Assembly (NCBI RefSeq): GCF_963921235.1
Contig: NC_086097.1
Coordinates: 3,844,001-3,908,000, forward strand
From: Mobula hypostoma
Taxonomy: Eukaryota
Direction of reading: 5' to 3'
Length of the DNA: 64,000 bases
Translations under genes and position numbers: made by a program
Notes under the pieces: model-generated
Databases searched by the model: none
Told to the model about the DNA's origin: nothing
What the model saw: only the letters and a program-made list of their open reading frames with translations
Shown: positions 11,255-60,112 of the stretch, one piece after another
Layout of the letters: each line of letters opens with the position of its first letter
How positions within the stretch are numbered: position 1 is the stretch's first letter

Positions 11255-11850
11255 ACACACACAAGATGCTGGGGGAACTCAGCAGGTCAGGCAACATCTG
11301 TGGAAATGAATTATGCAGTCGATGATTTCAACAGGACCCTTCATCAGGACTGGAAAGGAAAGAGGAAGAAACGAGAATGAGAAAGTGGGTCGGAGATGGA
11401 AGACAAGCTCAAAGGTGATAGGTGGACCCAAGTGGATGGGGGTAGGAGGATGAAGTAAGAGTTTGGGAGGTGCTTGGTGGAGAAGGTAAAGGGCTGGAGA
11501 AGAAGAAATCTGATAAGAGAGGGGAGTGGAGGAGGGGAACCAGGGAAAGGCGATAGGCAGGTGGGGAATTGAAGGGGGAGGGGAAGTTATCAGAATTTGG
11601 ATAAATTGATGTTCATGCCATTAAGTGGGAGGCTACTGAGGTGAAATGTGAGGTGTTGCCTCTTGTGGCAGAAGAGGAGGCCATGGACCAACATGTCAGT
11701 ATGGGAATGGGGATAGGAAACAAAATACTTGGCCACTGAGAAATTCTGCTTTTTGTGGAAGGGGCAAAGGTACTCTACAAATTGGTCTCCCAATCTATAT
11801 CTCACCACACCAATGTAGAGGAGGCCGCATCAGGAGGACCAGATACACTT
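11255..11850 (-). mobile_element. Penelope-like element 3' fragment (GIY-YIG endonuclease end plus pLTR with degenerate hammerhead)
   Basis: Minus strand CGLLYIG..YRLGDQFVEY..HSHTDMLVHGLLFC..QHLTFHLSSLPLNGMN. AGTC-CTGATGAAGGG..GAAA..TCGACT at 11317-11352. Confidence 0.85.
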
Positions 11851-12013
11851 TCACTGTTTGTGCTGTGCTCTCAAAGTATGTCTAAGGTTCCTACTGTTAT
11901 CCTGTATGCTCCTTCTCCACTTTAAGTGAACATGAGTCAGGGATTATAGAGAGTTATTGGCGAATTTGCACTTTTTCAGGAAGTCTTGAGAACTTCCTGA
12001 ACTGTTTTCCTCT

Positions 12014-12190
12014 GATCTCCTACCAAGATGGACAGAGTTTGGGACATGACAAACAAAGGGCCTGTCCAGCTCATTGGAACCAGCTGAGTGTAAATAGTGG
12101 GATCTCTTGCCAAGATAGGACAGAGTTTGGGACATGACAGACGGAGGGCCTGTCCAGCTCATTGGACTGAGCTGAATGTACATAGTGGGT
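12014..12190. repeat. About 87-bp direct tandem duplication
   Basis: Two diverged copies of gatctc..ccaagat.ggacagagtttgggacatgaca..agggcctgtccagctcattgga..agctga.tgta.atagtggg. Confidence 0.85.
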
Positions 12191-12194
12191 ACTG

Positions 12195-12840
12195 GTTGTC
12201 CATTGACTTTGATGATAATGATGTGCAGCTCATCTGATGTGCGTTTGGAGGTGACCATGGAGGCCAAATCTTGTACAGCATAGATATTCACAGTGAGGAC
12301 GAGGGAGTTGTCCTGATTCTGTTGGCAAGCCTGTTGCTGCTGCCCTCCTCATCTGCTGGGTGGTCTCCCTCCTTATTCCTCCTACGAGGTCTACTGCGTT
12401 TCTGCTTCCCCGTGATAACTGGCCAGAGAGCAGCTGGAGTCCTCCATGCGTCTATGATGTGCGATCCAACAGATTTGTGAAGTTGTGTGGGGATGATACT
12501 GATGTGGGTTCTTTTACACTGGTTATGGATTTGAAGAATTTTGCTGCAACAATGAAGCTGATGTCTGTCTCCCAAGTACTTGAGGTACCCGCTGTAGATA
12601 AACTCTGCCTCAGAAATTTTGGGTAGGCCAAGTCAGGTAGACCATGAGCTCGGTGCTGGGTTTGGGTCTTTCAATACTCTTTATCTCACCCGGCCCAAGG
12701 CAGTGGGCTGCACTGAATGTGAGGATAAATTCCATCATCATGTCGGCTATCAAAAGAGGGGTAGCTCGCTTTCCATTGTCGCCTCATGCATCTTTGTTGT
12801 CATTGGGCCATGTTGTATGGCTTGGGTCAATTGATAGAGA
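12195..12840 (-). mobile_element. RTE-clade LINE 3' fragment, old
   Basis: Minus strand LPWAG.., LPK.., DAWR and terminal PHCEYLCCTRFGLHGHLQTHIR* match the RTE C-terminal C..C....IGL.SH..TH pattern. Confidence 0.7.
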
Positions 12841-13014
12841 CGTTCATAAAGACAAGAGATTCTGCAGAAGCTGGAAATCCAGAGCAACGTACACAAAATG
12901 CTGGAGGAACTCTGCAGGTCAGGCGGATCTATGGAAATGAATAAACATTAATGGTTCAAAGGACGAAGAAGCTTTGTTTATTACATTAAATGTAAAGTCC
13001 ATTCAAGTTCAAGT

Positions 13015-20060: not shown

Positions 20061-20086
20061 CTGCAATCAAATGGACTCTTGGTCTC

Positions 20087-20645
20087 ATAACACATAAAAG
20101 TTGCTGGTGAATGCAGCAGGCCAGGCAGCATCTCTAGGAAGAGGTACAGTCGACATTTCGGGCCGAAACCCTGCGTCAGGACTAACTGAAAGAAGAGCTA
20201 GTAAGAGATTTGAAAGTGAGAGGGGAGGGGGAGATCCAAAATGATAGGAGAAGACAGGAGGGGGAGGGATGGAGCCAAGAGCTGGAAAGTTGATTGGCAA
20301 AAGGGATACGAGAGGATCATGGGACAGGAGGCCTAGGGAGAAGGAAAAGGGGGAGGGGGGAAGCCCAGAGGATGGGCAAGGGGTATAGTGAGAGGGACAG
20401 AGGGAGAAAAAGGAGAGAGAGAGAAAAAGAATGTGTGTATATAAATAAATAAATAACAGATGGGGTACGAGGGGGAGGTGGGGCATTAGCGGAAGTTAGG
20501 GAAGTCAATGTTCATGCTATCAGGTTGGAGGCTACCTAGACGGAATATAAGGTGTTGTTCCTCCAACCTGAGTGTGGTTTCATCTTTACAGTAGAGGAGG
20601 CCGTGGATAGACATATCAGAATGGGAATGGGACGTGGAATTAAAA
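20087..20645 (-). mobile_element. Penelope-like element 3' fragment with hammerhead-bearing pLTR
   Basis: Minus strand NSTSHSHSDMSIHGLLYCKDETTLRLEEQHLIFRLGSLQPDSMNIDF (GIY-YIG C-terminus). Hammerhead-like AGTC-CTGACGCAGGG..CCCGAAATGTC-GACT at 20148-20183. Confidence 0.9.
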
Positions 20646-22289
20646 TCAACATAAAAACATTTTTAGAGGAGGAGGGATGGACTCTCGGACCCCAGAATGG
20701 ATGGGATGGAAATGGTCCTGAGGTGAGAGAGGTGCTTTCACACCGTCTCCATGACCCAGCTGATCCATGGAGGGGAACGGTAGTGGCTGTCGAGTTAGTA
20801 CTGAGAGGTGGATGGGACACAGAGTGACTGACCTGAGGATCTGTTCTCAGACTGTCCACTCACCCAGATTGCACAGTTTTGATGGTCTTGTTCCTCTGGA
20901 AGAAGAAAGAACGGGTTAAACTCACCAGCTTACAATAGACAATGACAGGACCCTTTACATTTGAAGTCACAGATTTACACAGCATGAGAACCCGTCCATA
21001 CTTCTTCACTGTCCTGTCTACCTATGTCACCACTTACAGGGAGTTCTGTACTTGTATGTCTCATCCCTCTGTTCTACAACTCTCCCTGGGCCCTGTCATT
21101 TACTCTTGGTTCTGCACTGATTTAACTTCCCAAAATCTATCACATCGCACTCGTCCCAGTTAAGTTTGTCCTACCATTCCTTGGCCCACTTCTCGAGCTG
21201 GTCTTCATCTCATTATAAACTTAGGAAACCCTCACTTCCACCACACACCAGTTTTGGTGTCATCCACAAACCCACAAACTCACTAATTATTTGACCTACA
21301 TTCTCCTGCAACTTGTTAAAAACACAGGACAAACAACAAGACATTTACACTTCTAGATTCTGAATAGGATGAAACACTGCCTCAGTATTAAAGGCGATAG
21401 GCTTCCCAGTCTGTAGTTAGGTATTGTGTACCATCTTCAGACAGGCATGAGGGGTATGTCTGACATTACTGAGGGCCTTTGTTGATACTATCCTGGGAGC
21501 AGCTCCTTAGCAACCAGGATCAATAAACACAGTGGGCCCCAAGCAGTAATTACCCATATTTTCCCAGAGCTGACCACCCCAAAATCCCAACAACTAATCT
21601 ATCATCCGTCCCCAAAGATAATCCTTCTGAACATTGCTCCAGAAGGAATGAAAGGAATCGGTACTTTGTCTCACTGTTGCTGAGCTCTTTCTGTCAGGGA
21701 TTCTGTCCATCTGGTGCAGGATTCTTCCTTCCCCTTCAGATGTCTCCAGCTATTGTTCACATCAGGCTTTCTTCTCTTCAGAGTTTCGGTGTGGTAGATT
21801 AAGTTCAGGAAAGTCAGTCGAGTCAGGGATCTATTCCCACCAAGGAGCAGAATGGTGAATCTAAGGAAGAGGCCCTTCATCCCATCATGGTGCTGTTGCA
21901 AAGAAAGCTCCACAGATCCTTCCTGTCTTTCTCTGTCCTCTTCCTCCCCATCTCCAGCTTGTCCTCTCTCAGGGGCTTCACACCCTCAACAGAACATGTT
22001 CTCTTCCACATCCATTCCACTGTTAGACTTCCCAACAGAAGATGCAGTTCAGGAAAAGTATTCGAGAGCATGATGAAATTCCACTGAGGCAAAAATTCCA
22101 GAGTCCAAGATTTTTATGATGCTGCTAGGTTGTAAGTTTAAATCCACCAGGTCGCAACTCGATCAGTGTCATTCTATTGGGAGCGCCAGTGAGTGGGGAG
22201 ATCCAAGGATTGAGATTGTGCAAATATCAATGCCCCCCTGAGGATCGGCCAAATCTGGAGCCCATAATGAGGCATTTTAATACACCATG

Positions 22290-30582: not shown

Positions 30583-30612
30583 CACACAGAGGGAATTATT
30601 CTAACTGCTAAC

Positions 30613-30806
30613 AACAGGAATTCTGCAGATGCTGGAAATTCAAGCAACACACATCAAAGTTGCTGGTGAATGCAGCAGGCCAAGCAGCATCTATAGGAAG
30701 AGGCTCAGTCGACGTTTCAGGCCGAGGCCCTTCGTCAGGACTGCGCCTCTTCCTATAGATGCTGCTTGGCCTGCTGCGTTCACCAGCAACTTTGATGTGT
30801 GTTGCT
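30613..30806. mobile_element. Penelope pLTR fold-back insertion with about 17-bp TSD
   Basis: Inverted arms at about 30642-30703 and 30744-30806, flanked by ttattctaactgctaac on both sides. Confidence 0.85.
30707..30742 (-). ncRNA. Minimal type I hammerhead ribozyme (Penelope-associated)
   Basis: AGTC-CTGACGA-AGGgcctcggCCT-GAAA-CGTC-GACT: intact core boxes, stem I AGTC/GACT, stem II AGG/CCT, palindromic ACGT stem III, GUC cleavage triplet. Confidence 0.75.
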
Positions 30807-30883
30807 TATTCTAACTGCTAACGTGTTTTTCACATTATAATGTATGATTGCAGTATATATTTTAATCTTGCTTTATGTTGCAG

Positions 30884-31320: not shown

Positions 31321-31470
31321 GTGATTAAGTGTTCTTTCTGCTGTGAGAAGATACTTTATGTCTGTTCACAATCATGTGAGGATCAAGGGAGACCAAGAAT
31401 TTGTCCATATTTTGTATACATCAATGATGCCATAATATTAGCTATATTTAATAATAATAATAGCTTATTT

Positions 31471-35105: not shown

Positions 35106-35879
35106 TTTATAGAGCACTTTCCACACAGACAATGTAGTTCAAATATCTTTATAATGGGATAAAGTGCAAACATGAAAATAAAAGACAAAAAGATGTTGGA
35201 TAAAAGCAAGGTGAAATAATTGGGTTTTGAGCTGGTGTTTAAAAGTGTCAAGCGAGTCTGCATCCCTTATAGTTTTAAGTACTGAATTCTACAGTTTAGG
35301 AGTGTAGTTCAAAAAAGTTGACCTGCTAATTATCTTTTGAACTGGGAATGCTTATTGGGCCATTTAATATCAGAAAACAAAGTCAGCTAATGTTCCTTTA
35401 GGGTCAGACTAAGAATGCGTAGGTGTTCTTTTGCCCTTTGGTGTTTATGGCCTGCTTTGATTTTTCAGATATTATTTTAAATTTCCACCATTTACAGTTT
35501 TTACAATCTCATTCTCCAACTCTTATAATTTATAAAGTGATGAGTCAGGAGAAACAAAATCACAATAAGACCTGCTTCTGCAGTACCACAATTGCTCATA
35601 TCTCAGTTTTCTTTATGGTACAGGAACTACAAAACCCACTTTGCAAAGGACCCTGAGTCTGCCAGAGTGAGCCTGAGTTTCCAGTTGTCTTTCCTTGTTC
35701 TGACAGGGAATCTCAGAACAAAAATGATTCTCTTTCCGCAGATGCTGTCTGAGCTAATGAGTATTTCCAGCACTTCTGGTTTGTTCTGCTTCAATCTTCT
35801 CTTTTCTGCAGGAAGTGAATGAAACCTTGTCTATCTTTTCCAGTAGTTTCAATCTCCAAGTACTATTAAATATCTCAAA

Positions 35880-36102
35880 CATGAGAAAACCTGCCGATGC
35901 TGCAAATCCAAAGCAACACACAGAAAAATGGTGGAGAAACTCTGTAGACCAGGGTGCATCTCTGGAAAAGCGTACAGTCGACGTTTCAGACTGAGACCCT
36001 CCTTCAGTTCTGATGAAGGGTCTTGGCCTGAAACATCGACTGTTTGCTCTTTTCCATAGATGCTGCCTAGCCCACTGATTTCCTGCACCATTTTGTGTGT
36101 AC
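35880..36102. mobile_element. Penelope pLTR inverted pair with two back-to-back hammerhead motifs
   Basis: Plus strand AGTT-CTGATGA-AGGG..CCT-GAAA-CATC-GACT at 36006-36041; degenerate minus-strand copy at 35976-36010; inverted flanking arms. Confidence 0.78.
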
Positions 36103-43080: not shown

Positions 43081-43089
43081 CGTATGTAG

Positions 43090-43755
43090 AGTAACACACA
43101 CAAAATGCTGGAGGAACTCAGCAGCTCAGGAAGTATCAATGGAAAGTAGTAAACTTGAGTTTTCAGGCCCAGACCCTTCTTCAGGACTGGAGCAGGTGTA
43201 CAAAAAGTGGAATATCCCAGTGGCCAACTATTTCAATTCCAATCCCCACTCCTCTTCTGACATGTCAGTCCATGGTCTCTGCTTCTGCCTTGATGAGGCC
43301 ACTGTCAGGTTGGAGGGACAATGTCTCATATTCTGTCCAGGTAGCCTCCAACATCGATTTTTCCAACTTCCAGTCATTTCTTTCCCCACACCCCTCCCTC
43401 TTCCTCATTTCCCCTCTCTGGCCTCTTACCTCTTCTCTTGCCCGTTACACTCTGGGTCCCTTTCTCCTTTCCTTTTTCCCATGGTCCACTCTCCTCTCCT
43501 ATCAGATTCCTTCTGCTCTAGCTCTTTAACTTTCTCACTCTCCAGGTTTCACCTATCACCTTCTAGCTTGTCCTCCTCCCCCACACCCTGCCTTTTTATT
43601 CTGGCTCCTTCCCCCTTCCTTTCCAGTCCTGATGAAGAGTCTCAGCTGGAAACGTTGACTGTTTATTCATTTCCACAGATGCTGCCTGACCTGCTGGGTT
43701 CTTCCAGCATTTTGTCGGTGTTGCTCTGGATTTCCAGCATTTGCAGAAATGCTTG
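43090..43755 (+). mobile_element. Penelope-like fragment with inverted 5' pLTR and sense hammerhead
   Basis: PVANYFNSNPHSSSDMSVHGL..RLEGQCLIF. AGTC-CTGATGA-AG..GAAA-CGTT-GACT at 43625-43660; inverted pLTR copy at 43090-43190. Confidence 0.85.
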
Positions 43756-45667: not shown

Positions 45668-48143
45668 ATAGAAACATAGAAACATAGAAAATAGGTGCAG
45701 GAGTAGGCCATTCGGCCCTTCGAGCCTGCACCGCCATTTATTATGATCATGGCTGATCATCCAACTCAGAACCCCGCCCCAGCCCTCCCTCCATACCCCC
45801 TGATCCCCGTAGCCACAAGGGCCATATCTAACTCCCTCTTAAATATAGCCAATGAACTGGCCTCAACAGTTTGCTGTGGCAGAGAATTCCACAGATTCAC
45901 CACTCTCTGTGTGAAGAAGTTTTTCCTAATCTCGGTCCTAAAAGGCTTCCCCTCTATCCCCAAACTGTGACCCCTCGTTCTGGACTTCCCCAACATCGGG
46001 AACAATCTTCCTGCATCTAGCCTGTCCAATCCCTTTAGGATCTTATACGTTTATAGGTATTGGGGGTAAGGTATTGGTGTGGGTGGAGAATTGGTTAGCA
46101 GACAGGAAGCAAAGAGTGGGAATAAACGGGACCTTTTCAGAATGGCAGGCGGTGACTAGTGGGGTACCGCAAGGCTCAGTGCTGGGACCCCAGTTGTTTA
46201 CAATATATATTAATGACTTGGATGAGGGAATTAAATGCAGCATCTCCAAGTTTGCGGATGACACGAAGCTGGGTGGCAGTGTTAGCAGTGAGGAGGATGC
46301 TAAGAGGATGCAGGGTGACTTGGATAGGTTGGGTGAGTGGGCAAACTCATGGCAGATGCAATTTAATGTGGATAAATGTGAAGTTATCCACTTTGGTGGC
46401 AAAAATAGGAAAACAGATTATTATCTGAATGGTGGCCGATTAGGAAAAGGGGAGGTGCAACGAGACCTGGGTGTCATTATACACCAGTCATTGAAAGTGG
46501 GCATGCAGGTACAGCAGGCGGTGAAAAAGGCGAACGGTATGCTGGCATTTATAGCGAGAGGATTCGAGTACAGGAGCAGGGAGGTACTACTGCAGTTGTA
46601 CAAGGCCTTGGTGAGACCACACCTGGAGTATTGTGTGCAGTTTTGGTCCCCTAATCTGAGGAAAGACATCTTTGCCATAGAGGGAGTACAAAGAAGGTTC
46701 ACCAGATTGATTCCTGGGATGGCAGGTCTTTCATATGAAGAAAGACTGGATGAACTGGGCTTGTACTCGTTGGAATTTAGAAGATTGAGGGGGGATCTGA
46801 TTGAAACGTATAAGATCCTAAAGGGATTGGACAGGCTAGATGCAGGAAGATTGTTCCCGATGTTGGGGAGGTCTAGAACGAGGGGTCACAGTTTGAGGAT
46901 AGAGGGGAAGCCTTTTAGGACCGAGGTTAGGAAAAACTTCTTCACACAGAGAGTGGTGAATCTGTGGAATTCTCTGCCACAGCAAACTGTTGAGGCCAGT
47001 TCATTAGCTATGTTTAAAAGGAAGTTAGATATGGCCCTTGTGGCTACAGGGGTCAGGGGGTATGGAGGGAAGGCTGGGTTCTGAGTTGGATGATCAGCCA
47101 TGATCATAATAAATGGCGGTGCAGGCTCGAAGGGCCGAATGGCCTACTCCTGCACCTATTTTCTATGTTTCTATGTTTCTATGTTTCAATCAGATCCCCC
47201 CTCAATCTTCTAAATTCCAACGAGTACAAGCCCAGTTCATCCAGTCTTTCTTCATATGAAAGTCCTGCCATCCCAGGAATCAATCTGGTGAACCTTCTTT
47301 GTACTCCCTCTATGGCAAAGATGTCTTTCCTCAGATTAGGGGACCAAAACTGCACACAATACTCCAGGTGTGGTCTCACCAAGGCCTTGTACAACTGCAG
47401 TAGTACCTCCCTGCTCCTGTACTCGAATCCTCTCGCTATAAATGCCAGCATACCATTCGCCTTTTTCACCGCCTGCTGTACCTGCATGCCCACTTTCAAT
47501 GACTGGTGTATAATGACACCCAGGTCTCGTTGCACCTCCCCTTTTCCTAATCGGCCACCATTCAGATAATAATCTGTTTTCCTATTTTTGCCACCAAAGT
47601 GGATAACCTCACATTTATCCACATTAAATTGCATCTGCCATGAGTTTGCCCACTCACCCAACCTATCCAAGTCACCCTGCATCCTCTTAGCATCCTCCTC
47701 ACTGCTAACACTGCCACCCAGCTTCGTGTTATCCGCAAACTTGGAGATGCTGCATTTAATTCCCTCATCCAAGGCATTAATATATATTGTAAACAACTGG
47801 GGTCCCAGCACTGAGCCTTGCGGTACCCCACTAGTCACCGCCTGCCATTCTGAAAAGGTCCCGTTTATTCCCACTCTTTGCTTCCTGTCTGCTAACCAAT
47901 TCTCCAGCCACACCAATACCTTACCCCCAATACCGTGTGCTTTAAGTTTGCACACTAATCTCCTGTGTGGGACCTTGTCAAAAGCCTTTTGAAAATCCAA
48001 ATATACCACATCCACTGGTTCTCCCCTATCCACTCTACTAGTTACATCCTCAAAAAATTCTATGAGATTTGTCACACATGATTTTCCTTTCACAAATCCA
48101 TGCTGACTTTGTCCGATCATTTCTCCGCTTTCCAAATGTGCTG
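45668..48143 (-). mobile_element. Young CR1 (minus strand) split by an antiparallel copy of the same family
   Basis: 3' part 45668-46052 ends ..tatacgttt and resumes caatcagatcc at 47187; RT ORF 47179-48135. Confidence 0.95.
46056..47187 (+). mobile_element. Young 5'-truncated CR1 nested in a CR1
   Basis: Open ORF2 C-terminus (FADDTK..GGKAGF*) and (TTCTATGT)n tail. Confidence 0.96.
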
Positions 48144-48144
48144 G

Positions 48145-48580
48145 CTTTTATTCCACCCTCTCACTACCTTCTGAGTGAAGAGGTTCCCCCTCATGTCCCC
48201 CTTAAGCTTCACACTTTTCACCCTTAACCCATAACCCCTAGTTGTAGTCCCACCCAACCTCAATGGAAAAAAAACTTGCTTGCATTTACTCTGTCTATAC
48301 CCCTCATAATTTTGTATACTTCTATCAAATCTCTCCTCAGTTTTCTACGTTCCAAGGAATAAAGTCCTAATCTATTCAATCTTTCCTTATAACTCATGTC
48401 CCCTAGTACTGACAAAATCCTTGTAAATTTTCTCAGTACTCTTTCAACCTTATTTACATCTTTCCTGTAGGTAGGTGACCAAAACTGCACAGAATACTCT
48501 AAATTAGGCCTCAATAATATCTTGTATAACTTCAACATAACATCCCACCTCCTCTACTCAATATACTGATTTATGAAGGC
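48145..48580 (-). mobile_element. CR1 RT fragment (different subfamily)
   Basis: LLRPNLEYSVQFWSP..ERLNRLGLYSLE. Confidence 0.85.
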
Positions 48581-49009
48581 CTCTTTAATTTCCTTCCCTA
48601 ATTCTGCCTGTTACCCATCTCTCCATCCTCTCTTCTTACATTGTTTTTTTTAAACTGCTTTCCTGTTTCCTTCTGTCTGAATGGGTTTTATTATTTGAGT
48701 TTGTACTCTGTAATCTCTTTGGGCATGCTAGTGATTGTGAATGTGTACTATAGTATGACAGCCATAGAAGTGGATTCGACAAAATCAGGGCAGAGATTGT
48801 TTAAAAAAAAGTAGAAAATGCTGGAAATAGCCAGTAGCTCAGACAATCCCTGTAGAGAGAGATATTCATCCAGAGCACATCAGATATTACAGGAGGATTT
48901 TGCTTACAATTTCCACCTGTTAAAATGTATTGGCAACATTTATGCAAATGATCTGTGATTGATTGATGTACAGGATGCTGGTATGTGAAATATCAACACT
49001 GAATTGGAG

Positions 49010-49468
49010 AATACACAGTCGATGTTTTGGGCTGAAACTCTTCATCAGGACTGGAAATGAAGGGGGGAGGGAAGAATCTAGAATAACAAGATGGGGGGGG
49101 AGGAGGGAAAGCTTGAATGTGATAGGTGAAACCAGTCGGATGGGGGAGGGAAGGTGAAGTCAGAAACAGAGAGGAGATAGGTGGAGAAGGTTAAGGGCTG
49201 GAGAAGGCAGGACCATGGGAGAAAGGGAAGGAGGAGGGACACTTGGAGAAGAGGAGGCGGGGAATGATAGGCAGGTGAGGAGAAGAGGTAAGAAGGAGGG
49301 GGCCAGAGTGGGGAACTGAAGAAGAGGGAAGGGGGGAGGAGAAAGAAAACACTGGAAGTTGGAGAAATTGGTGTTCGTGCCATCAGGTTGGAGGCTACCT
49401 AGACAGAATGAGGTGTTGCTCCTCCAAATTGAGAGTGGCCTCATCGTGGCAGAAGAGGAGGCCAACAT
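49010..49468 (-). mobile_element. Penelope-like 3' fragment with degenerate hammerhead
   Basis: Homologous to 20087-20645 (LGSLQPDG); AGTC-CTGATGAAG..CCCAAAACATC-GACT at 49017-49052. Confidence 0.8.
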
Positions 49469-50883
49469 ACCAGCCCTGAGCCTGGATTTTCAGACTGGAC
49501 CTGATGAACGTAGAATGTAAGGAAACAACAGTCGATCTAGTAGCTAATGGGCATACCTGCATTTCTACCCTTCATAGCTGCTGTAACTATTGGCCATTAA
49601 CCATTAGACATAGGACCATAATTAGGCCATTTGGCCCATTGAGTCTGCTCCACCATATCATCACAGCTAACTTATTATCCCTCTCAACCCCATTCTCCTA
49701 CCCTCTCCCTATAACTTTACATGCTCTGACTAATCAAGAACCTATCAAATTCCGCTTTAAATATACCCAGTGACTTGGCGTCCGCAGCCATCTGTGACAT
49801 TGAATTCCACAGGTTATCCTCCCTCTGGCTAAAGAAACTCTTCCTTATCTCTATTCTAAATGAGTGTCCCTCTATTCTGAGGCTTTGCCCTTTTGTCCTA
49901 GACTCACCCATATTGGAAAAATCCTCTTCATATCCACTCTATCAAGGGTGCTCAATATTCGATAGGTTTCAATGACATCCCTTTTCATTCTTCTAAACTC
50001 CAGTGAGTACAGGCTGAAAACTATCCATTGTTCCTCATATGCTAAACCTTTCTTGCCCGGAATCATTCTTGAGAATCTCCTCTGGACCTCTCCAATGCCA
50101 GCAAATCTTTCTCAGATAAGGGACCCAATACTCTTAAGTGCGGTCTGAGCAATGCCTTATAAAGCCTCAGCATCACATCTTGCTCTTATATTCCAATCCT
50201 CTCAAAATGAATGCTAACATTGCTTTTGCCTTCCTTACCACAGACTCAACCTGCAAGTTAAGCTTTAGAGTGATTTGCACAAGGACTTTCAAAACCCTTT
50301 GCACCTCTGATATTTGAATTTTCTCCCCATTTCAAAAATGGTCTAAATCTTTATTCCTTCTACAAAAGTGCATGACCATACACTTCCCGACACTGTACTC
50401 CATCTGCCATTGTCTAGACTCCTGCTTCCCCAAAACTACCTGCCCCTTCACCTATTTTCATATTGTCTGTAAGTCTGGCCACCATCAATTCTGTCATCCA
50501 AATCATTGACATATAATGTGAAAAGAAGCAGTCCTAATATCAAACCCTGTGGGACGCTACCTGTCACCAGCAGCCAACCAGAATGGGCCCTGTTTATTCC
50601 CACTCTTTGCCTCCTGCCAATTAGCCAATCTTCTATCCCTGCTGGGATCTTTCCTGTAAAACCATGGGCCCTTATCTTGGTAAACAGCCTAATCTGTAGC
50701 ACTTCGTCAGAGGCCTTCTGGAAATCCAAGTACACAACATCCATTGATTCTCATTTGTCTATCCTGTTATTTCCTCAAAGAATTTCAATAGAGGGATGTG
50801 ATGTTGAGGCTCTATAAGGTGCTGGTGAGACCTCACTTGGAGTACTGTGGGCAGCTTTGGTCTCCTTATTTAAGAAAGCATGA

Positions 50884-51153: not shown

Positions 51154-54100
51154 AAACATAGAAACATAGAAAATAGGTGCAGGAGTAGGCCATTCGGCCC
51201 TTCGAGCCTGCACCGCCATTTATTATGATCATGGCTGATCATCCAACTCAGAACCCAGCCTTCCCTCCATACCCCGTGACCCCTGTAGCCACAAGGGCCA
51301 TATCTAACTTCCTTTTAAACATAGCTAATGAACTGGCCTCAACAGTTTGCTGTGGCAGAGAATTCCACAGATTCACCACTCTCTGTGTGAAGAAGTTTTT
51401 CCTAACCTCGGTCCTAAAAGGCTTCCCCTCTATCCTCAAACTGTGACCCCTCGTTCTAGACCTCCCCAACATCGGGAACAATCTTCCCGCATCTAGCCTG
51501 TCCAATCCCTTTAGGATCTTATACGTTTCAATCAGATCCCCCCTCAATCTTCTAAATTCCAACGAGTACAAGCCCAGTTCATCCAGTCTTTCTTCATATG
51601 AAAGACCTGCCATCCCAGGAATCAATCTGGTGAACCTTCTTTGTACTCCCTCTATGGAAAGGATGTCTTTCCTCAGATTAGGGGACCAAAACTGCACACA
51701 ATACTCCAGGTGTGGTCTCACCAAGGCCTTGTACAACTGCAGTAGTACCTCCCTGCTCCTGTACTCGAATCCTCTTGCTATAAATGCCAGCATACCATTC
51801 GCCTTTTTCACCGCCTGCTGTACCTGCATGCCCACTTTCAATGACTGGTGTATAATGACACCCAGGTCTCGTTGCACCTCCCCTTTTCCTAATCGGTCAC
51901 CATTCAGATAATAATCTGTTTTCCTATTTTTGCCACCAAAGTGGATAACTTCACATTTATCCACATTAAATTGCATCTGCCATGAATTTGCCCACTCACC
52001 CAACCTATCCAAGTCACCCTGCATCCTCTGAGCATCCACCTCACAGCTAACACTGCCGCCCAGCTTCGTGTCATCCGCAAACTTGGAGATGCTGCATTTA
52101 ATTCCCTCATCCAAGTCATTAATATATATTGTAAACAACTGGGGTCCCAGCACTGAGCCTTGCGGTACCCCACTAGTCACCGCCTGCCATTCTGAAAAGG
52201 TCCCGTTTATTCCCACTCTTTGCTTCCTGTCTGCTAACCAATTCTCCACCCACACCAATACCTTACCCCCAATACCGTTTGCTTTAAGTTTGCACACTAA
52301 TCTCCTGTGTGGGACCTTGTCAAAAGCCTTTTGAAAATCCAAATATACCACATCCACTGGTTCTCCCCTATCCACTCTACTAGTTACATCCTCAAAAAAT
52401 TCTGAGATTCGTCAGACATGATTTTCCTTTCACAAATCCATGCTGACTTTGTCCGATGATTTCACCGCTTTCCAAATGTGCTGTTATCACATCTTTGATA
52501 ACTGACTCCAGCAGTTTCCCCACCACCGACGTTAGGCTAACCAGTCTATAATTCCCCGGTTTCTCTCTCACTCCTTTTTTAAAAAGTGGGGTTACATTAG
52601 CCACCCTCCAATCCTCAGGAACTAGTCCAGAATCTAACGAGTTTTGAAAAATTATCACTAATGCATCCACTGTTTCTTGGGCTACTTCCTTAAGCACTCT
52701 GGGATGCAGACCATCTGGCCCTGGGGATTTATCTGCCTTTAATCCCTTCAATTTACCTAACACCACTTCCCTACTAACATGTATTTCGCTCAATTCCTCC
52801 ATCTCACTGGACCCTCTGTCCCCTACTATTTCTGGAAGATTATTTATGTCCTCCTTAGTGAAGACAGAAGCAAAGTAATTATTCAATTGGTCTGCCATGT
52901 CCTTGCTCCCCATAATCAATTCACCTGTTTCTGTCTGTAGGGGAACCTACATTTGTCTTTACCAGTCTTTTCCTTTTAACATATCTATAAAAGCTTTTAC
53001 AGTCAGTTTTTATGTTCCCTGCCAGTTTTCTCTCATAATCTTTTTTCCCTTTCCTAATTAAGCCCTTTGTCCTCCTCTGCTGAACTCTGAATTTCTCCCA
53101 GTCCTCAGGTGAGCCACTTTTTCTGGCTAATTTGTATGCTTCTTCTTTGGAAGTGATACTATCCCTAATTTCTCTTGTCAGCCACGGGTGCACTACCTTC
53201 CTTGATTTATTCTTTTGCCAAACTGGGATGAACAATTGTTGTAGTTCATCCATGCCATCTTTAAATGCTTGCCATTGCATATCCACCGTCAATCCTTTAA
53301 GTGTCATTTGCCAGTCTATCTTAGCTAATTCACGTCTCATACCTTCAAAGTTACCCCTCTTTAAGTTCAGAACCTTTGTTTCTGAATTAACTATGTCACT
53401 CTCCATCTTAATGAAGAATTCCACCATATTATGGTCACTCTTACCCAAGGGGCCTCTCACGACAAGATTGCTAATTAACCCTTCCTCATTGCTCAAAACC
53501 CAGTCTAGAATAGCCTGCTCTCTAGTTGGTTCCTCGACATGTTGGTTCAAAAAACCATCCTGCATACATTCCAAGAAATCCTCTTCCTCAGCACCTTTAC
53601 CAATTTGGTTCACCCAATCTACATGTAGATTGAAGTCACCCATTATAACTGCTGTTCCTTTATTGCACACATTTCTAATTACCTGTTTAATACCATCCCC
53701 GACCTCACTACTACTGTTAGGTGGCCTGTACACAACTCCCACCAGCGTTTTCTGCCCCTTAGTGTTATGCAGCTCTACCCATATCGATTCCACATCTTCC
53801 CGGCTTATGTCCTTCCTTTCTATTGCGTTAATCTCCTCTTTAACCAGCAACGCCACCCCACCTCCTTTTCTTTCATGTCTATCCCTCTTGAATATTGAAT
53901 ATCCCTGAACATTGAGCTCCCATCCTTGGTCACCCTGGAGCCATGTCTCTGTGATCCCAACTACATCATAATCATTAATAACAATCTGCACTTTCAATTC
54001 ATCCACCTTGTTACGAATGCTCCTGGCATTGACACACAAAGCCTTCAGGCTCTCTTTTACAACTCTCTTAGCCCTTATACAATTATGTTGAAAAGTGGCC

Positions 54101-54834
54101 CTTTTTAATGCTTGCCCTGGATTTGTCGGCCTGCCACTTTTACTTTTCTCCTTTGTACTTTTTGCTTCTACCCTCACTTTACACCCCTCTGTCTCTCTGC
54201 ACTGGTTCCCATCCCCCTGTTGTGAACTAACCTCCTCTCACCTAGCCTCTTTAATTTGATTCCCACCCCCCAACCATTCTAGTTTAAAGTCACCTCAGTA
54301 GCCCTCGCTAATCTCCCTGCCAGGATATTGGTCCCCCTAGGATTCAAGTGTAACCCGTCCTTTTTGTACAGGTCACGCCTGTGCCAAAAGAGGTCCCAAT
54401 GATCCAAAAACTTGAATCCCTACCTTCTGCTCAAATCCCTCAGCCACGCATTTATCCTCCACCTCATCGCATTCCTACTCTCGCTGTCGCGTGGCACAGG
54501 CAGTAATCCCGAGATTACTACCTTTGCGGTCCTTTTTCTCAACTCCCTTCCTAGCTCCCTATATTCTCCTTTCAGGACCTCTTCCCTTTTCCTACCTATG
54601 TCATTGGTACCTATATGTACCACGACCTCTGGCTCCTCACCCTCCCACTTCAGGATATCTTGGACACGATCAGAAATATCCCGGACCCTGGCATCAGGGA
54701 GGCAAACTACCATCCGGGTCTCTGGACTGCGTCCACAGAATCGCCTATCTGACCCCCTTACTATCGAGTCCCCTATCACAACTGCCCTCCTCTTCCTTTC
54801 CCTACCCTTCTGAGCTACAGGGCCGGACTCTGTG
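51154..54834 (-). mobile_element. Young CR1 LINE, 5'-truncated in ORF1, ORF2 with two frameshifts
   Basis: ORF1 esterase; ORF2 pieces 54177-52921, 52919-52392 and 52375-51248; near-identical to 31471-35105 in the opposite orientation. Confidence 0.97.
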
Positions 54835-56084
54835 CTGACGTTGGAGAGGGTGCAGAGAAGATTCACTAGAATGATTCTGGGAATGAGAGGGTTAACATAT
54901 GAGGAACGTTTGTCTGCTCTTGGACTGTATTCCTTGGAGTTTAGAAGAATGAGGGGAGACCTCATAGAAACATTTCGAATGTTGAAAGGCATGGACAGAG
55001 TGGATGTGGCAAAGTTGTTTCCCATGATGGGGGAGTCTAGTACGGGAGGGCATGACTTAAGGATTGAAGGGCGCCCATTCAGAACAGAAATGCGAAGAAA
55101 TTATTTTCGTCAGAGGGTGGTGAATCTATGGAATTTGTTGCACGGGCAGCAGTGGAGGCCAAGTCATTGGGTGTATTTAAGGCAGAGATTGATAGGTATC
55201 TGAGTAGCCAGGGCATCAAAGGTTATGGTGAGAAGGCAGGGGGAGTGGGACTAAATGGGAGAATGGATCAGCTCATGATAAAATGACGGCGCAGACTCGA
55301 TGGGCCGAATGGCGACTTCTGCTCCTTTGTGTTATGGTCTTATGGATTTGTCAGGTAAGATTTCCCCTTAAGGAAACCATGCTGCCCTTGGCCTATTTTA
55401 TCATGTGTCTCCAAGTACTCCGGAACCTCCTCCTTAATAATGGATTCCAACATTTTTCCAAGTACTGAAGACAGGCTAACTGGCCTATAAATTCCTTTCT
55501 TCTGCCATCCTCCCTTCTTAAAGAGTGGAGTGACATATGCAATTTTCTAGTCGCAGAATCAGAATCAGGTTTATTATCACTGGCTTGTGACGTGAAATTT
55601 GTTAGCTTAGCAGCAACAGTTCAATGCAATACATAATATAGAAGAGAAAAAAAAAGATAAAATTAAAATAATAATAGTAGATAAATCAGTTGCGGTATAG
55701 GTATATTGAATAGGTTTTAAAAACATGCAAAAAAACAGAAATGCTGTATATTAAAGAAAAAAGTGAGGTTCTGTCTTCTGGAACCATGCTAGAATCTCGT
55801 GATTCTTGAAAGATCATTACTCATGCCTCCACAATCTCTTCAGCTACCTCTTTCAGAACCCAGGGGTGTCGTCCATCTAGTCCAAGTGACTTATCTGTTT
55901 TCAGTCTTTTCAGCTGCCCAAATGCGAAATCCTTAGTAATGGCGACCACATGCACTTCTACCCCCTGACACCCTTGAATTTCTGGCAAATGGCTAGTGTC
56001 TTCCACAGTGAAAAATGACGCAAAATACTTTTCATGTTCATCTGCCATTAATGGTTGTTTTCAAAATGTGCTTTTGTTTCTTAG

Positions 56085-58566: not shown

Positions 58567-59189
58567 TAACTTTAAATCAGTTACCATCTGTCGTGGTTTT
58601 CCTACCGGGCAGCTCGAACCTATTTGGTAAGTGTAATGTATATCAAATTTATCACTAAATCCTACTGAGTAAGAGATATGAATATTCACAGAAATACTCA
58701 TTCTAAATAACAAAGCACATTCAAATTCAAGTTCAAGTTTATTGTCATCTGACTGTACATATATACAACCAATCAAAATAACGTTCCTCCGGACCACAGT
58801 GCACCTACAATACATACGTCATACACAGCACATAAGACAAAGTATTACCATAAATAAGTTAATAAAATATAATTCAACATGTATGTAGTGGGCAGCAGAG
58901 GTAAACAGTAAACTGTACAATAAACAGCTCTCTGACCTCAGTGGTGGCAGAGGATGCACTAGTCTCACAGCCTGAGGGAAGACAGTCCTCGGTCCTGATG
59001 TTCTTTTACTTCCTTCCTGATGCTAGCGGGTCAAAGAGATTGTGGGAGGGGTGGTAGGGATACGCAACTTCGGGCACCTCATACTCAAAGTAAAGCATTG
59101 GAGCTCAGGGCCTGTAAGTTCCTTATAAAAACTCCCAGAAAATATTTGGGAATGTAATATTGAGTTTTACAAAAGTGGGTTGTGCATTT

Positions 59190-59462
59190 TTTTTAAATTT
59201 AGAGCTACAGCATGAAACAGGCACTTACGGTCCTCTGAGCCACACCGCCAGCAATCCTGATTTAAGACTAGCCTAATCACGGGACAATTTACAGTGGCCA
59301 ATTACCCTACTAACTGGTACGTTTTTGGACTGTGGGAGGAAGCTGGAGCAGCCAGTGGAAATCCATGCATTCAATGGCGAGGACGTACAAACTCCTTAGA
59401 GATGGTAGGAGTTGACGTTCTGAGCTGTAGTAGCATTGTGCTAGTCACTACACAATCCAGGT
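59190..59462 (-). mobile_element. HE1/V-SINE-like SINE
   Basis: Homologous to 31075-31320. Confidence 0.6.
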
Positions 59463-59559
59463 GCTCCGTGATCTGAAATAATCAATCCCACAGAAATGTT
59501 ACCAGGTATCCTTATAATAATATCTTAGAGCTGATTTGTGTCCTCTGCTTGTATTACAG

Positions 59560-59748
59560 GAATTCATCGTGGAAAAGAAAACGATTACCCAAATGGCATT
59601 ACACATGGATTCAACAACAATCAGTAGTACCTCAGACCAAATTCAGAATAAACCAGGAGTAACTAATAATGCAAAACAACAGACCAATACGTCTCTCGCA
59701 AATTCTACTAAAATGGTAGCCCAACATAAGAATTTAAAAAGTCATTAA
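59560..59748 (+). CDS. CCDC197: CCDC197-like terminal exon E (EFIVEKK..KNLKSH*)
   Basis: ttgtattacag acceptor, phase 0, 189 nt to TAA; ATTAAA overlaps the stop codon. Confidence 0.8.
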   Translation, partial: EFIVEKKTITQMALHMDSTTISSTSDQIQNKPGVTNNAKQQTNTSLANSTKMVAQHKNLKSH

Positions 59749-59819
59749 ATTCCAATGCTTAATGTTTGTTTCAAAAGAAAATCTGATATTTACCACTGAT
59801 CTACAGAGACTATTAATCT

Positions 59820-60112
59820 ATAGTAGTGTAGCGGGTAGCATGATGCTATTACGGTTTGGGGCATTCCAGAGTTAATCCGGACTGTCTGTAAGGAGTTTGT
59901 ACGTCCTCCCTTTGGAGTGTGTGGTTTTCCCCAGGTGCACTGGTCTCCTCCCACAGTACAAGGACATACCAGGTTAGTCCTGACGAAGGGTCTCAGCCCG
60001 AAACGTTGACTGTACCTCTTCCTAGAGGTGCTGCCTGGCCTGCTGCGTTCACCAGCAACTTTGATGTGTGTTACATACCAGGTAGGTTCACTGGTCATTG
60101 TAGATTGTCCTG
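59820..60112 (+). mobile_element. V-SINE-like element interrupted by an about 100-bp Penelope pLTR insert
   Basis: tRNA-like head and V-like core ggagtttgtacgtcctcc; the insert is flanked by the duplication acataccaggt. Confidence 0.72.
59976..60011 (+). ncRNA. Minimal type I hammerhead ribozyme, sense to the host gene
   Basis: AGTC-CTGACGA-A-GGGtctcagCCC-GAAA-CGTT-GACT; core boxes and stems I and II intact, GUU triplet. Confidence 0.72.

What the first reader, a model, noticed from the sequence alone, without database searches (positions are those of the whole stretch)
11317..60011. At least nine hammerhead ribozyme motifs dispersed by Penelope terminal repeats
Seen: the pattern AGTC-CTGANGA-stem II-GAAA-CGTC-GACT or decayed versions at 11317(-), 20148(-), 30707(-), 35976(-), 36006(+), about 43150(-), 43625(+), 49017(-) and 59976(+), several next to GIY-YIG remnants. 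Established: Penelope-like elements carry minimal type I hammerheads whose palindromic stem III needs dimerisation to cleave. Inference: this density implies a large genome-wide reservoir of latent self-cleaving RNAs in host transcripts, invisible to ORF-based annotation.
Basis: partly seen in the sequence, partly recalled or inferred. Interest (0 to 1): 0.75.

Follow-up and report, generated by a model that had tools for sequence, protein, structure and literature searches.

The report
Penelope retrotransposon hammerhead motifs, mostly decayed
The nine sites are real copies of a small hammerhead-ribozyme motif carried near the 3' end of Penelope-like retrotransposons, a known association, present here in tens of thousands of copies of which most in this window look catalytically dead.

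Summary
All nine sites exist at the stated coordinates. A covariance model scores them 35.7-63.6 bits; the next hit scores 11.4, though the nine were among its seeds. Each is a 36-nt minimal type I hammerhead: stem I AGUC/GACU, CUGAYGA, a 4-bp stem II, GAAA, and a loopless palindromic ACGU in place of stem III, with the cut expected after GUC.

The carrier is a Penelope-like element (PLE). [quoted passage not shown] The hammerhead lies about 300 nt after the stop codon and about 66 nt (or about 100 nt with the optional tail) from the insertion's 3' end. Four of the nine window copies keep a GIY-YIG remnant upstream. The other five are short arms that end at the motif's 5' edge.

A strict motif occurs 76,711 times in the 3.48-Gb genome, against 0 for the reversed control. 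In the window, 2 of 9 copies pass the strict motif, 6 of 9 keep both core boxes, and 3 carry core-inactivating changes.

The PLE association and the need for dimers are already published (Cervera and de la Pena 2014). Cleavage in host transcripts is untested. Side observation: about 6-10% of the main subfamily's copies begin exactly at hammerhead nucleotide 1.

The parts
30707..30742 (-). Hammerhead copy with every canonical feature: AGUC/GACU stem I, CUGACGA, stem II GGGC-CUCG-GCCU, GAAA, ACGU, GUC cut site.
   Evidence: 59.5 bits; passes strict pattern
59976..60011 (+). Hammerhead copy with intact core and a G10.1-C11.1 pair; cleavage triplet is GUU instead of GUC.
   Evidence: 63.6 bits; passes strict pattern
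36006..36041 (+). Hammerhead copy with intact core boxes. Stem I is AGUU/GACU (one wobble) and the stem III tetramer is ACAU, no longer palindromic.
   Evidence: 58.9 bits
43625..43660 (+). Hammerhead copy of a second subfamily: core boxes intact, weakened stem II, GUU triplet.
   Evidence: 54.7 bits
20148..20183 (-). Hammerhead copy with CUGACGC (A9 to C), so the core is mutated.
   Evidence: (58.1 bits)
35976..36011 (-). Hammerhead copy with CUGAAGG (A9 to G) and the 5' strand of stem I lost. It lies head to head with the 36006 copy.
   Evidence: 50.1 bits
49017..49052 (-). Hammerhead copy with AAAA in place of GAAA (G12 to A), so the core is mutated.
   Evidence: (53.5 bits)
43153..43188 (-). 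Hammerhead copy with both core boxes kept, but the cleavage triplet and the 3' strand of stem I have decayed.
   Evidence: 46.4 bits
11317..11351 (-). Hammerhead copy with both core boxes kept, decayed stem II, and one base too few in the stem II region plus one too many in the stem III region (35 nt in all).
   Evidence: 35.7 bits
11252..11864 (-). 5'-truncated PLE insertion: GIY-YIG remnant at 11593-11847, 3' UTR, hammerhead, 3' terminal segment.
12859..12947 (-). PLE fragment made only of the 3' terminal segment plus the tail extension. It starts 4 nt after the expected cleavage site and has no hammerhead.
20089..20646 (-). 5'-truncated PLE insertion (GIY-YIG remnant 20489-20644), about 90% identical to the reference copy.
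30610..30807 (.). A single insertion of about 198 bp flanked by a 15-17-bp target-site duplication (30596.. and 30806..). It reads: inverted 3' segment, then the hammerhead core, then the 3' segment plus 34-nt tail. The two arms meet inside AGTC and form the palindrome 30672-30777.
35878..36096 (.). Head-to-head pair of short PLE arms, both ending within a few nt of the hammerhead's 5' edge. One arm has the tail extension and the other lacks it.
43088..43748 (.). Head-to-head pair: a short (-) arm at 43088-43191 ending at the hammerhead edge, and a (+) arm at 43176-43748 with a GIY-YIG remnant, hammerhead and tail.
49009..49514 (-). 5'-truncated PLE insertion with a GIY-YIG remnant at 49352-49514; its 3' segment is cut short.
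59975..60072 (+). A solo 98-bp insertion (hammerhead plus 3' segment) flanked by an 11-bp target-site duplication (59964-59974 and 60073-60083). It begins 1 nt before the hammerhead.

Best explanation
The nine motifs are copies of one 36-nt minimal type I hammerhead that belongs to a very abundant family of Penelope-like retrotransposons (PLEs).

Shown:
- The element unit is about 3.5 kb.
- The hammerhead lies about 300 nt after the stop codon of the RT/GIY-YIG ORF.
- In tandem units the same motif lies about 90 nt before the next long open frame.
- Insertions end about 66 nt after the expected cut site, or 34 nt further (the 'tail').
- Insertions are heavily 5'-truncated, so the 3'-proximal hammerhead is the part copied most often.
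- Many insertions are head-to-head pairs of arms inside one target-site duplication, so one event can deposit two motifs.

Inferred from the published family, not tested here: the motif has no stem III, only the palindrome ACGU. It can reach a catalytic fold only by pairing with a second copy (a double hammerhead), cutting after GUC. Its proposed role is processing of multimeric element transcripts.

I put about 0.9 on identity and carrier. I put about 0.4 on self-cleavage being the motif's selected function.

The dispersed copies decay neutrally. In this window, one keeps all features, three more keep a plausible core, and five are broken.
For: Motif:
- All nine sites align to one 36-mer.
- Stems I and II pair in 90.7% of cells, against 13.7-43.0% when the partner columns are slid.
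- The core boxes match CUGANGA and GAAA, with an unpaired A between position 9 and stem II, as described for PLE min-hammerheads (PMC4209133).

Carrier:
- Upstream of the motif in genome loci lies an ORF ending in a GIY-YIG domain.
- Locus L039 has a 949-aa open frame with a DKG motif, an RVT_1 match at 453-603 and a GIY-YIG match at 852-926.
- Three tandem pairs have periods of 3,497-3,516 nt.
- In four of the six longer copies checked (L053, L054, L058, L059), the motif lies 89 nt before the long frame; upstream partial units vary in length.
- The 3' ends fall in two classes 34 nt apart: 8 without and 18 with the tail, of 30 nuclease-anchored loci, with 4 others. This matches the two reverse-transcription start sites and the tail of Frangieh et al. 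2024 (PMC11167929, passages).
- Inverted 5'-truncated arms with the tail at one end only match Craig et al. 2021 (PMC8557442, passages).
- Target-site duplications flank whole units.

Abundance and truncation:
- 76,711 strict motifs against 0 for the control.
- 228,173 first-look candidates for the nuclease part against 3,112 for the N-terminal part.

Constraint: subfamilies whose 3' UTRs no longer align still share the hammerhead and the segment after it.
Against: - Neither Pfam match reaches its curated cut-off: RVT_1 20.6 against 29.6 bits, GIY-YIG 18.5-19.1 against 22.6 bits.
- No GIY-YIG Pfam match was found among the 99 window ORFs of 100 aa or more. The window remnants are seen only by tblastn with genome copies.
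- No Rfam hammerhead family matches, even at E<=10.
- There is no significant covariation: score 0.182 against a shuffled mean of 0.169, with 33 of 500 shuffles as high. The copies are too alike to test the structure independently.
- The commonest 10.1-11.1 pair is G-U (27 of 48 distinct rows) and not the G-C (15 of 48) called highly conserved in the literature.
- Nearest-neighbour energies do not favour catalysis. For the best copy, the monomer's lowest-energy fold is a rod that pairs GACG of the core with CGUC at the cut site (-17.7 kcal/mol, against -13.7 for the stem I plus II fold). The double-hammerhead dimer (-24.9) is weaker than two rods (-35.4) or the best duplex (-41.5).
- Frangieh et al. 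report that catalytic hammerhead mutants did not change in vitro insertion, and that no reads began or ended at the cut site.
- Only 3 of about 30 arms in my 174-kb sample start within 8 nt of the cut site, and none unambiguously at it. I therefore see no genomic footprint of cleavage.
Confidence: 0.85

Rival explanations
1. The hammerhead-like sequence is kept by the element for something other than self-cleavage. It would be a structured module at the extreme 5' end of the element's RNA, or a hairpin in the RNA or the nascent cDNA. Such a module would mark where reverse transcription ends or turns back. The catalytic-core resemblance would then be inherited but no longer the selected property.
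For: - The favoured fold is a closed rod, not the catalytic junction.
- Of about 30 arms in 174 kb of unselected sequence, 10 end within -3..+7 of hammerhead nucleotide 1.
- Genome-wide, copies whose base before AGTC is a purine number 3,239 (2 of 4 bases allowed). The equivalent classes at -2 and -5 number 1,756 and 1,582 (3 of 4 bases allowed).
- Head-to-head junctions are densest when the two cores are 0-12 nt apart: 1,461 sites, against 2,068 for 13-42 nt and 1,077 for 43-72 nt.
- The window holds a TSD-flanked 98-bp insertion that starts 1 nt before the motif, and a fold-back insertion joined inside AGTC.
- In vitro insertion did not need hammerhead catalysis (PMC11167929).
Against: - The full catalytic core is kept between subfamilies, and more generally across PLE clades according to the literature. 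A mere hairpin would not require that.
- Fungal and plant PLE hammerheads cleave well in vitro.
- The 5'-end peak is about 3-fold per allowed base, not absolute.
- Upstream partial units of four longer copies start at varied places, not at the motif.
Confidence: 0.3
2. The short hammerhead-plus-3'-segment units are non-autonomous retrozymes: tandem repeats that make circular RNAs after self-cleavage and are mobilised by PLE proteins. They would not be simple truncated PLE copies.
For: - Retrozymes of animals carry type I hammerheads and are related to PLE terminal regions (10.64898/2026.07.22.740005, abstract and Results part 1; PMC7229834, search listing only).
- A few loci elsewhere in this genome hold direct short-period arrays of the motif, for example 36-nt and 61-62-nt periods.
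Against: - None of the nine window copies is in a direct tandem array.
- Direct pairs spaced 83-113 nt give only 131 matches genome-wide, clustered in a few loci, against 76,711 motifs.
- Short units share sequence and both 3' end classes with the autonomous element. They sit inside target-site duplications as single or inverted units.
Confidence: 0.05
3. The motifs are chance matches, or belong to another repeat class in the window such as the CR1-like LINEs or a SINE tail.
For: - The window is rich in LINE fragments.
- The 35976/36006 pair lies about 1 kb after a LINE RT frame.
Against: - The reversed-pattern control gives 0 against 76,711.
- The nine share about 100 nt of homology beyond the core.
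- In genome loci the sequence upstream of the motif is the PLE nuclease ORF, not a LINE.
Confidence: 0.01

Closest known systems
Minimal hammerheads (min-HHR) of metazoan Penelope-like elements (Cervera and de la Pena 2014, PMC4209133; parts 1 and 2 of 4 of the text read)
   Same: - Type I layout.
- No helix III, only a palindromic 15.2-16.2 pair of positions (ACGU).
- Short helix I (4-5 bp).
- An unpaired nucleotide between position 9 and helix II.
- Located in the element's terminal region.
- Mostly found as single dispersed motifs from truncated elements, with some pairs 100-700 bp apart on opposite strands.
   Different: - Helix II here is 4 bp with a tetraloop, not the 7-8 bp described for Schistosoma.
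- The commonest 10.1-11.1 pair is G-U rather than G-C.
- The copies are nearly uniform instead of 'extremely variable' (mean column identity 90%).
- The load of 76,711 strict copies is about ten times the cases called remarkable in that paper (about 4,000 in coelacanth and 9,000 in Xenopus), though those used a different descriptor.
Poseidon element PAc of Anolis carolinensis (Frangieh et al. 2024, PMC11167929; passages read)
   Same: - The hammerhead sits at the junction of the terminal repeat and the ORF.
- Reverse transcription starts at two adjacent internal sites, which explains the optional 30-40-bp tail.
- Both target strands are used.
   Different: - Here the motif lies about 90 nt before the long open frame and does not overlap the start codon.
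- The RT-nuclease linker carries a CX4CX2C motif. Craig et al. 2021 assign that motif to the Neptune/Nematis type, not Poseidon (sequence reading; no phylogeny done).
Non-LTR retrozymes of animals (Cervera and de la Pena 2020, PMC7229834, search listing only; Li et al. 2026 preprint, abstract and Results part 1)
   Same: Type I hammerheads related to PLE terminal regions; non-coding short units.
   Different: Retrozymes are head-to-tail arrays that give circular RNAs. The window units are single or inverted, flanked by target-site duplications. Direct arrays are rare in this genome.
Rfam hammerhead families (type I/III and variants)
   Same: Same catalytic core boxes.
   Different: No Rfam hammerhead model matches, even at E<=10. 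The motif lacks the helix III that I assume those models expect (recalled, not checked).

Membership tests
Hammerhead ribozyme, minimal type I (PLE variant) | Core boxes CUGANGA and GAAA in the right order and spacing | tested here: met
   6 of 9 window copies keep both boxes. The three failures are 20148 (CUGACGC), 35976 (CUGAAGG) and 49017 (AAAA). In the 174-kb unselected sample, 11 of 19 keep both.
Hammerhead ribozyme, minimal type I (PLE variant) | Helices I and II formed by the flanking and internal segments | tested here: met
   90.7% of 431 cells pair, against 13.7-43.0% for slid controls. Covariation is not significant (33 of 500 shuffles as high), so this is compatibility, not independent proof.
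Hammerhead ribozyme, minimal type I (PLE variant) | NUH cleavage triplet directly before the 3' strand of helix I, with a palindromic 15.1-16.1 tetramer in place of helix III | tested here: met
   Read from the sequences:
- GUC in 30707, 35976 and 20148.
- AUC in 36006, 49017 and 11317.
- GUU in 43625 and 59976.
- Lost in 43153.
- The tetramer is ACGU in 30707, 35976, 43625 and 59976.
Hammerhead ribozyme, minimal type I (PLE variant) | Self-cleavage (as a dimer) | not testable with these tools
   Energy models do not favour the double hammerhead. No RNA run was on record.
Rfam hammerhead families | Score at or above the family's gathering threshold | tested here: not met
   0 matches at gathering score. 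No hammerhead family at E<=10 on 64 kb or on 71 nt.
Penelope-like elements (nuclease-bearing) | Single ORF with a reverse transcriptase followed by a C-terminal GIY-YIG nuclease | tested here: met
   L039 has a 949-aa open frame with RVT_1 at 453-603 (20.6 bits, cut-off 29.6) and GIY-YIG at 852-926 (18.5 bits, cut-off 22.6). Both are below the Pfam cut-offs. The order of domains and the VIYC...YIGET...EH motif are read directly.
Penelope-like elements (nuclease-bearing) | N-terminal DKG motif | tested here: met
   ...KPADKGGAVVVW... in the L039 frame. The motif is named as diagnostic in PMC8557442.
Penelope-like elements (nuclease-bearing) | Partial tandems forming pseudo-LTRs, an inverted 5'-truncated arm, and a 30-40-bp tail at one end | tested here: met
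   - Tandem periods of 3,497-3,516 nt.
- Upstream partial units of 248, 784 and 1,000 nt or more.
- Inverted arms in L039, L001 and window units.
- A 34-nt tail in 18 of 30 loci.
Penelope-like elements (nuclease-bearing) | RT groups with telomerase RTs in a phylogeny; clade assignment | not tested
   Only the CX4CX2C linker was read, which suggests the Neptune type. No tree was made.
Non-LTR retrozymes | Head-to-tail arrays of short hammerhead units | tested here: not met
   There is no direct array among the window copies. Genome-wide there are 131 matches for direct pairs at 83-113 nt spacing, in a few loci.

The most novel reading that the evidence does not exclude
Hammerhead nucleotide 1 (the A of AGUC) may be a defined 5' end of the element's RNA. 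The surrounding TTAGTCC/CCAGTCC fits the initiator consensus YYANWYY (recalled, not tested).

The signal for internal start of reverse transcription lies about 66-100 nt downstream, and it is present at both ends of a unit-plus transcript. Starting at the 5'-proximal signal would give run-off mini-cDNAs of about 100-135 nt (hammerhead plus 3' segment).

These 'strong-stop-like' mini-insertions, single or folded back, would then account for a sizeable share of the tens of thousands of intact hammerheads. On this reading the motif's position at the very 5' end, rather than cleavage, would shape how it spreads.
Probability: 0.25. Interest if true: 0.5.

Novelty: new member of a known kind. Interest (0 to 1): 0.3.

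Why it matters
This confirms that ORF-blind reading of raw sequence can pick out ribozyme motifs, and that Rfam models miss this class entirely. The genome carries one of the largest loads of hammerhead motifs I know of from the papers read: 76,711 strict copies, about one per 45 kb.

The biology is already described. Penelope-like elements carry minimal, dimer-dependent hammerheads of unclear function, and most dispersed copies are decaying passengers.

What could matter beyond that is the precise anatomy seen here:
- two 3' end classes;
- target-site duplications around inverted pairs;
- a peak of 5' ends at hammerhead nucleotide 1.

This anatomy gives a genome-scale data set bearing on the open question of what the hammerhead does for the element.

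Tried and rejected
- Rfam at gathering score and at E<=10 found no hammerhead family. It found only microRNA-precursor models hitting the fold-back palindrome, below their thresholds.
- Pfam on 99 window ORFs of 100 aa or more gave no GIY-YIG match. The remnants needed tblastn with genome copies.
- A fuzzy-regex scan timed out. It was replaced by local alignment.
- Expression: the look-up of sequencing runs listed no RNA holder. Only contig-level runs of uncertain kind were listed, so I did not lay reads, since contigs cannot show RNA ends.
- Footprint of cleavage: I looked for insertions starting exactly at GUC|GACU. In 174 kb, three arms start at 0 (ambiguous by a 4-nt overlap), +4 and +8. 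Two further candidates proved on inspection to be decayed or internally deleted hammerheads. There is no clear spike, so the idea is not supported.
- Splice-acceptor idea for the 5'-end peak: the pyrimidine tract plus CAG/TAG before the motif looks like a 3' splice site. In D. virilis an intron ends at helix I. Here, however, the peak is at the A of AGTC, which is not preceded by AG, and short arms share no common upstream 'exon'. Rejected.
- Fixed 5' end of long copies at the motif: 4 longer copies start 115 nt, about 650 nt or 1,000 nt or more upstream, or inside the 3' segment. This gives no support from long copies.
- Survival-curve counts with longer upstream anchors are confounded by a C/T polymorphism at -8.
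- One search used a wrong gap length and should be ignored.
- Two look-ups of earlier findings returned nothing.
Full report
OBSERVATION

Each aligns to one 36-nt unit. The unit reads AGTC, CTGAYGA, A, a 4-bp hairpin with a tetraloop (GGGT-CTCG-GCCT or GCCC), GAAA, CGTC, GACT.

In hammerhead numbering this is:
- helix I, 5' strand (AGUC);
- core C3-A9;
- an unpaired A;
- helix II;
- G12-A14;
- A15.1-C15.2-G16.2-U16.1 with no loop;
- C17, the expected cut site;
- helix I, 3' strand (GACU).

A covariance model built from 62 copies found exactly these nine in the window with filters off. The 62 were the 9 window copies, 10 from unselected genome sequence and 43 from loci chosen by the nuclease gene; one further row was dropped because its 5' half was not hammerhead. 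The nine scored 35.7-63.6 bits and the next hit 11.4 bits. The window copies were seeds, so the informative result is the gap, which shows that there is no tenth copy.

Chance is excluded. The strict pattern occurs 38,147 + 38,564 = 76,711 times in the 3.48-Gb assembly, against 0 for the same pattern read backwards. The loose two-box pattern gives 15 window matches against 7.6 expected, and 0 of 100 shuffles reach 15.

Rfam sees none of the nine.

STATE OF THE NINE COPIES

Two of the nine pass the strict pattern (30707, 59976) and six keep both core boxes. Reading the sequences:

| Copy | State |
|---|---|
| 30707 | Keeps everything |
| 59976 | Intact core, GUU triplet in place of GUC |
| 43625 | Intact core, GUU triplet, weakened helix II |
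| 36006 | Intact core, but ACAU in place of the palindrome ACGU |
| 20148 | A9 changed to C |
| 35976 | A9 changed to G, and the 5' strand of helix I lost |
| 49017 | G12 changed to A |
| 43153 | Cut-site triplet and the 3' strand of helix I lost |
| 11317 | Decayed helix II and an indel |

Most differences are CpG transitions, as expected for neutral decay.

THE CARRIER

Homology between window copies covers only about 100 nt: the motif plus about 66 nt after it. Genome loci show what lies upstream. It is an ORF ending ...VIYC.RCSRCGLLYIGETRRRLGDRFAEH...FSNFR-stop, a GIY-YIG nuclease. About 300 nt of 3' UTR follow, then the motif (296 nt in L039).

Locus L039 holds a 949-aa open frame with a DKG motif. 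It has a reverse-transcriptase match at 453-603 and a GIY-YIG match at 852-926. Both Pfam scores are below their curated cut-offs. I regard this as usual for this element class (recalled). The domain order plus the DKG motif are the class signature named in Craig et al. 2021.

The linker reads CX4CX2C, which that paper assigns to Neptune/Nematis-type elements. I made no tree.

Units occur in tandem with periods of 3,497-3,516 nt (three pairs). In four of the six longer copies checked, the motif lies 89 nt before the long open frame. That frame runs through the 34-nt tail. The same motif therefore sits in the 3' UTR of one unit and in the leader of the next, which is the pseudo-LTR arrangement of Penelope-like elements.

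In the window, four of the nine motifs have a nuclease remnant upstream. Pfam alone did not detect these.

HOW THE COPIES ARE SPREAD

Truncation is extreme. The nuclease part has 228,173 first-look candidates and the N-terminal part has 3,112. These are tool candidates, not copy numbers.

The 3' ends fall in two classes 34 nt apart. Of 30 nuclease-anchored loci, 8 end at ...GTTGC, 18 end 34 nt later and 4 are otherwise. This matches the two adjacent internal reverse-transcription start sites, and the optional tail, shown in vitro for an Anolis element by Frangieh et al. 2024.

Many insertions are head-to-head pairs of arms inside one target-site duplication:
- L039: arms of 1,854 and about 3,270 nt, 98.8% identical, with an 11-bp duplication read by eye from the printed flanks.
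- Window 30610-30807: a duplication of 15-17 bp.
- Further window pairs at 35878-36096 and 43088-43748.

In the pairs I could read (window 30610-30807 and 35878-36096, C5 68931-69155, L039), one arm has the tail and the other lacks it, as in the literature.

Window 59975-60072 is a solo 98-bp insertion with an 11-bp duplication.

LIKELY MECHANISM OF THE MOTIF

Because helix III is only the palindrome ACGU, a single copy cannot close the three-way junction. Two copies can form a domain-swapped double hammerhead. This is the published reading (Cervera and de la Pena 2014). The same paper reports no cleavage by a single motif, low cleavage for dimer and trimer constructs, and a proposed role in processing multimeric element RNA.

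My energy calculations argue for low intrinsic activity. For the best copy:
- The monomer's lowest-energy fold is a rod that pairs GACG of the core with CGUC at the cut site, at -17.7 kcal/mol. The stem I plus II fold is at -13.7 kcal/mol.
- The double hammerhead is at -24.9 kcal/mol. Two rods total -35.4, and the best duplex is -41.5.

These models ignore tertiary contacts.

Structure support from the alignment is compatibility only: 90.7% of cells pair, against 13.7-43.0% for slid controls, and covariation is not significant.

Some evidence of constraint exists at the level of element lineages. Subfamilies whose 3' UTRs no longer align still share the motif and the following segment. In the copies read, the only recurrent difference between two subfamilies inside the 36 nt lies in loop II (CUCG against UCCG).

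The following segment is also the leader and the reverse-transcription start region, so it is constrained for its own reasons.

Frangieh et al. found that catalytic mutants did not change in vitro insertion, and saw no reads ending at the cut site. I therefore give about 0.4 to self-cleavage as the selected function.

GENOME-WIDE RESERVOIR

The strict motif occurs once per 45 kb. In 174 kb of unselected sequence (the window, 80 kb of contig 5 and 30 kb of contig 12), I found 19 recognisable copies. Four pass the strict pattern and 11 keep both boxes. That is roughly one recognisable copy per 9 kb.

The 'remarkable' cases in the 2014 paper were about 4,000 and 9,000 motifs, found with a different descriptor.

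That these act as latent self-cleaving RNAs in host transcripts was not tested:
- I recognised no host exon in the window.
- No RNA run was on record.
- An inverted pair supplies only one sense copy per transcript strand.
- Direct short-period arrays, where dimers would form easily, are rare: 131 matches in a few loci.

SIDE OBSERVATION: WHERE ARMS END

Of about 30 arms in the 174-kb sample, 10 have their 5' end within -3..+7 of hammerhead nucleotide 1.

Genome-wide, I counted the main subfamily as the 5' half of the motif plus an anchor in the following segment, which gives 67,668 copies. Among these:

| Class | Copies | Bases allowed | Copies per allowed base |
|---|---|---|---|
| Purine directly before AGTC | 3,239 | 2 of 4 | 1,620 |
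| Non-T at -2 | 1,756 | 3 of 4 | 585 |
| Non-C at -5 | 1,582 | 3 of 4 | 527 |

The two lower classes also contain point-mutated long copies. The -2 class also contains nucleotide-1 copies whose flank happens to start with T. I estimate that 6-10% of this subfamily starts exactly at nucleotide 1.

Head-to-head junctions are densest when the two cores nearly touch:

| Spacing between cores | Sites | Sites per nt of spacing |
|---|---|---|
| 0-12 nt | 1,461 | 112 |
| 13-42 nt | 2,068 | 69 |
| 43-72 nt | 1,077 | 36 |

By my reading of the listed rows, many junctions are perfect or near-perfect palindromes, which suggests fold-back synthesis.

I do not know the cause. I see two candidates:
- A defined RNA 5' end at that A. 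The context fits the initiator consensus as I recall it.
- Release of the reverse transcriptase once the nascent cDNA can fold into the hairpin.

Two findings weigh against a fixed 5' end:
- Four longer copies start at varied positions.
- In D. virilis the transcription start lies 46 bp before a 75-bp intron whose end abuts helix I, and not at the motif.

I searched the paper library only for the hammerhead-Penelope association and for Penelope promoter work. I cannot say whether this 5'-end peak is in print.

VERDICT

It is unproven about activity in host transcripts.

This is a new, very large instance of a known association, not a new kind of system. Supplementary figures of the 2014 paper, which hold its motif alignments, were not consulted. 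They could show whether this exact motif was already listed.

Noticed in passing
window 30596-30822: A TSD-flanked insertion of about 198 bp. Its two arms meet inside the AGTC of helix I, giving a 106-nt near-perfect hairpin at 30672-30777. The hairpin matches microRNA-precursor models below their thresholds (mir-3926 at 46.4 bits against a gathering score of 82; mir-4776 at 27.1 against 97). Such fold-back PLE insertions could be a source of hairpin RNAs.
   Followed up: partly
window 59964-60083: A solo 98-bp insertion (hammerhead plus 3' segment) with an 11-bp target-site duplication, starting 1 nt before the hammerhead. This shows that units of about 100 nt are complete insertion products.
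   Followed up: partly
genome-wide and the 174-kb sample: A peak of insertion 5' ends exactly at hammerhead nucleotide 1. Copies with a purine before AGTC number 3,239, against 1,756 and 1,582 for the neighbouring classes, which allow more bases. In the sample, 10 of about 30 arms end within -3..+7.
   Followed up: partly
genome-wide: Head-to-head hammerhead pairs are densest at the smallest spacing: 1,461 sites at 0-12 nt, 2,068 at 13-42 nt and 1,077 at 43-72 nt. By my reading of the lists, many junctions are perfect palindromes. The commonest listed form has a 2-nt centre (11 of the 50 sites listed).
   Followed up: partly
G000:C40:14479128-14479500; C50:67866254-67866700; C5:27282264-27282581; C63:13592830-13593147; C64:2291275-2294365: Rare direct arrays derived from the motif. 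There are units of 36 nt (hammerhead only) and of 61-62 nt (hammerhead plus part of the next segment), and a satellite of about 14 nt made of the CTGATGAAGGGTCT box. These are retrozyme-like contexts in which dimers could form.
   Followed up: no
window 12859-12947 (-): A PLE fragment made only of the 3' segment and the tail. It starts 4 nt after the expected cleavage site and has no hammerhead.
   Followed up: partly
L053, L054, L058, L059 (positions 1130-1262 of each oriented locus): The 34-nt tail and the end of the 3' segment are read in frame with the long ORF (...CMLLEFPASAEFLLF...). The insertion's 3' end thus lies inside the leader or start of the next unit's frame, as in the Anolis element.
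   Followed up: partly
window 59976-60072 and other copies, segment after the motif: By eye, a 5-bp hairpin TGCTG-N7/8-CAGCA is kept between subfamilies while its loop differs. It lies just before the first class of 3' ends and could belong to the reverse-transcription start signal. It was not folded or tested.
   Followed up: no
window 31309-35005 (+), 51251-55100 (-), 45942-47081 (+), 47182-48147 (-): LINE copies with a GDSL-esterase frame, an AP-endonuclease and a reverse transcriptase (I read these as CR1-like, by recall), plus further RT fragments.
   Followed up: no
window 284-1923 (+) and 7930-8595 (+): Remnants of a hAT transposase (DUF4371 and the hAT dimerisation domain) and of an RNase H of the RT_RNaseH type (I read this as LTR-retrotransposon-derived, by recall).
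   Followed up: no
all copies: The monomer's lowest-energy fold pairs GACG (G5-G8 of the core) with CGUC (15.2-17, including the cut site). This closes the whole motif into a rod. It is an alternative, inactive conformer built into the sequence.
   Followed up: partly
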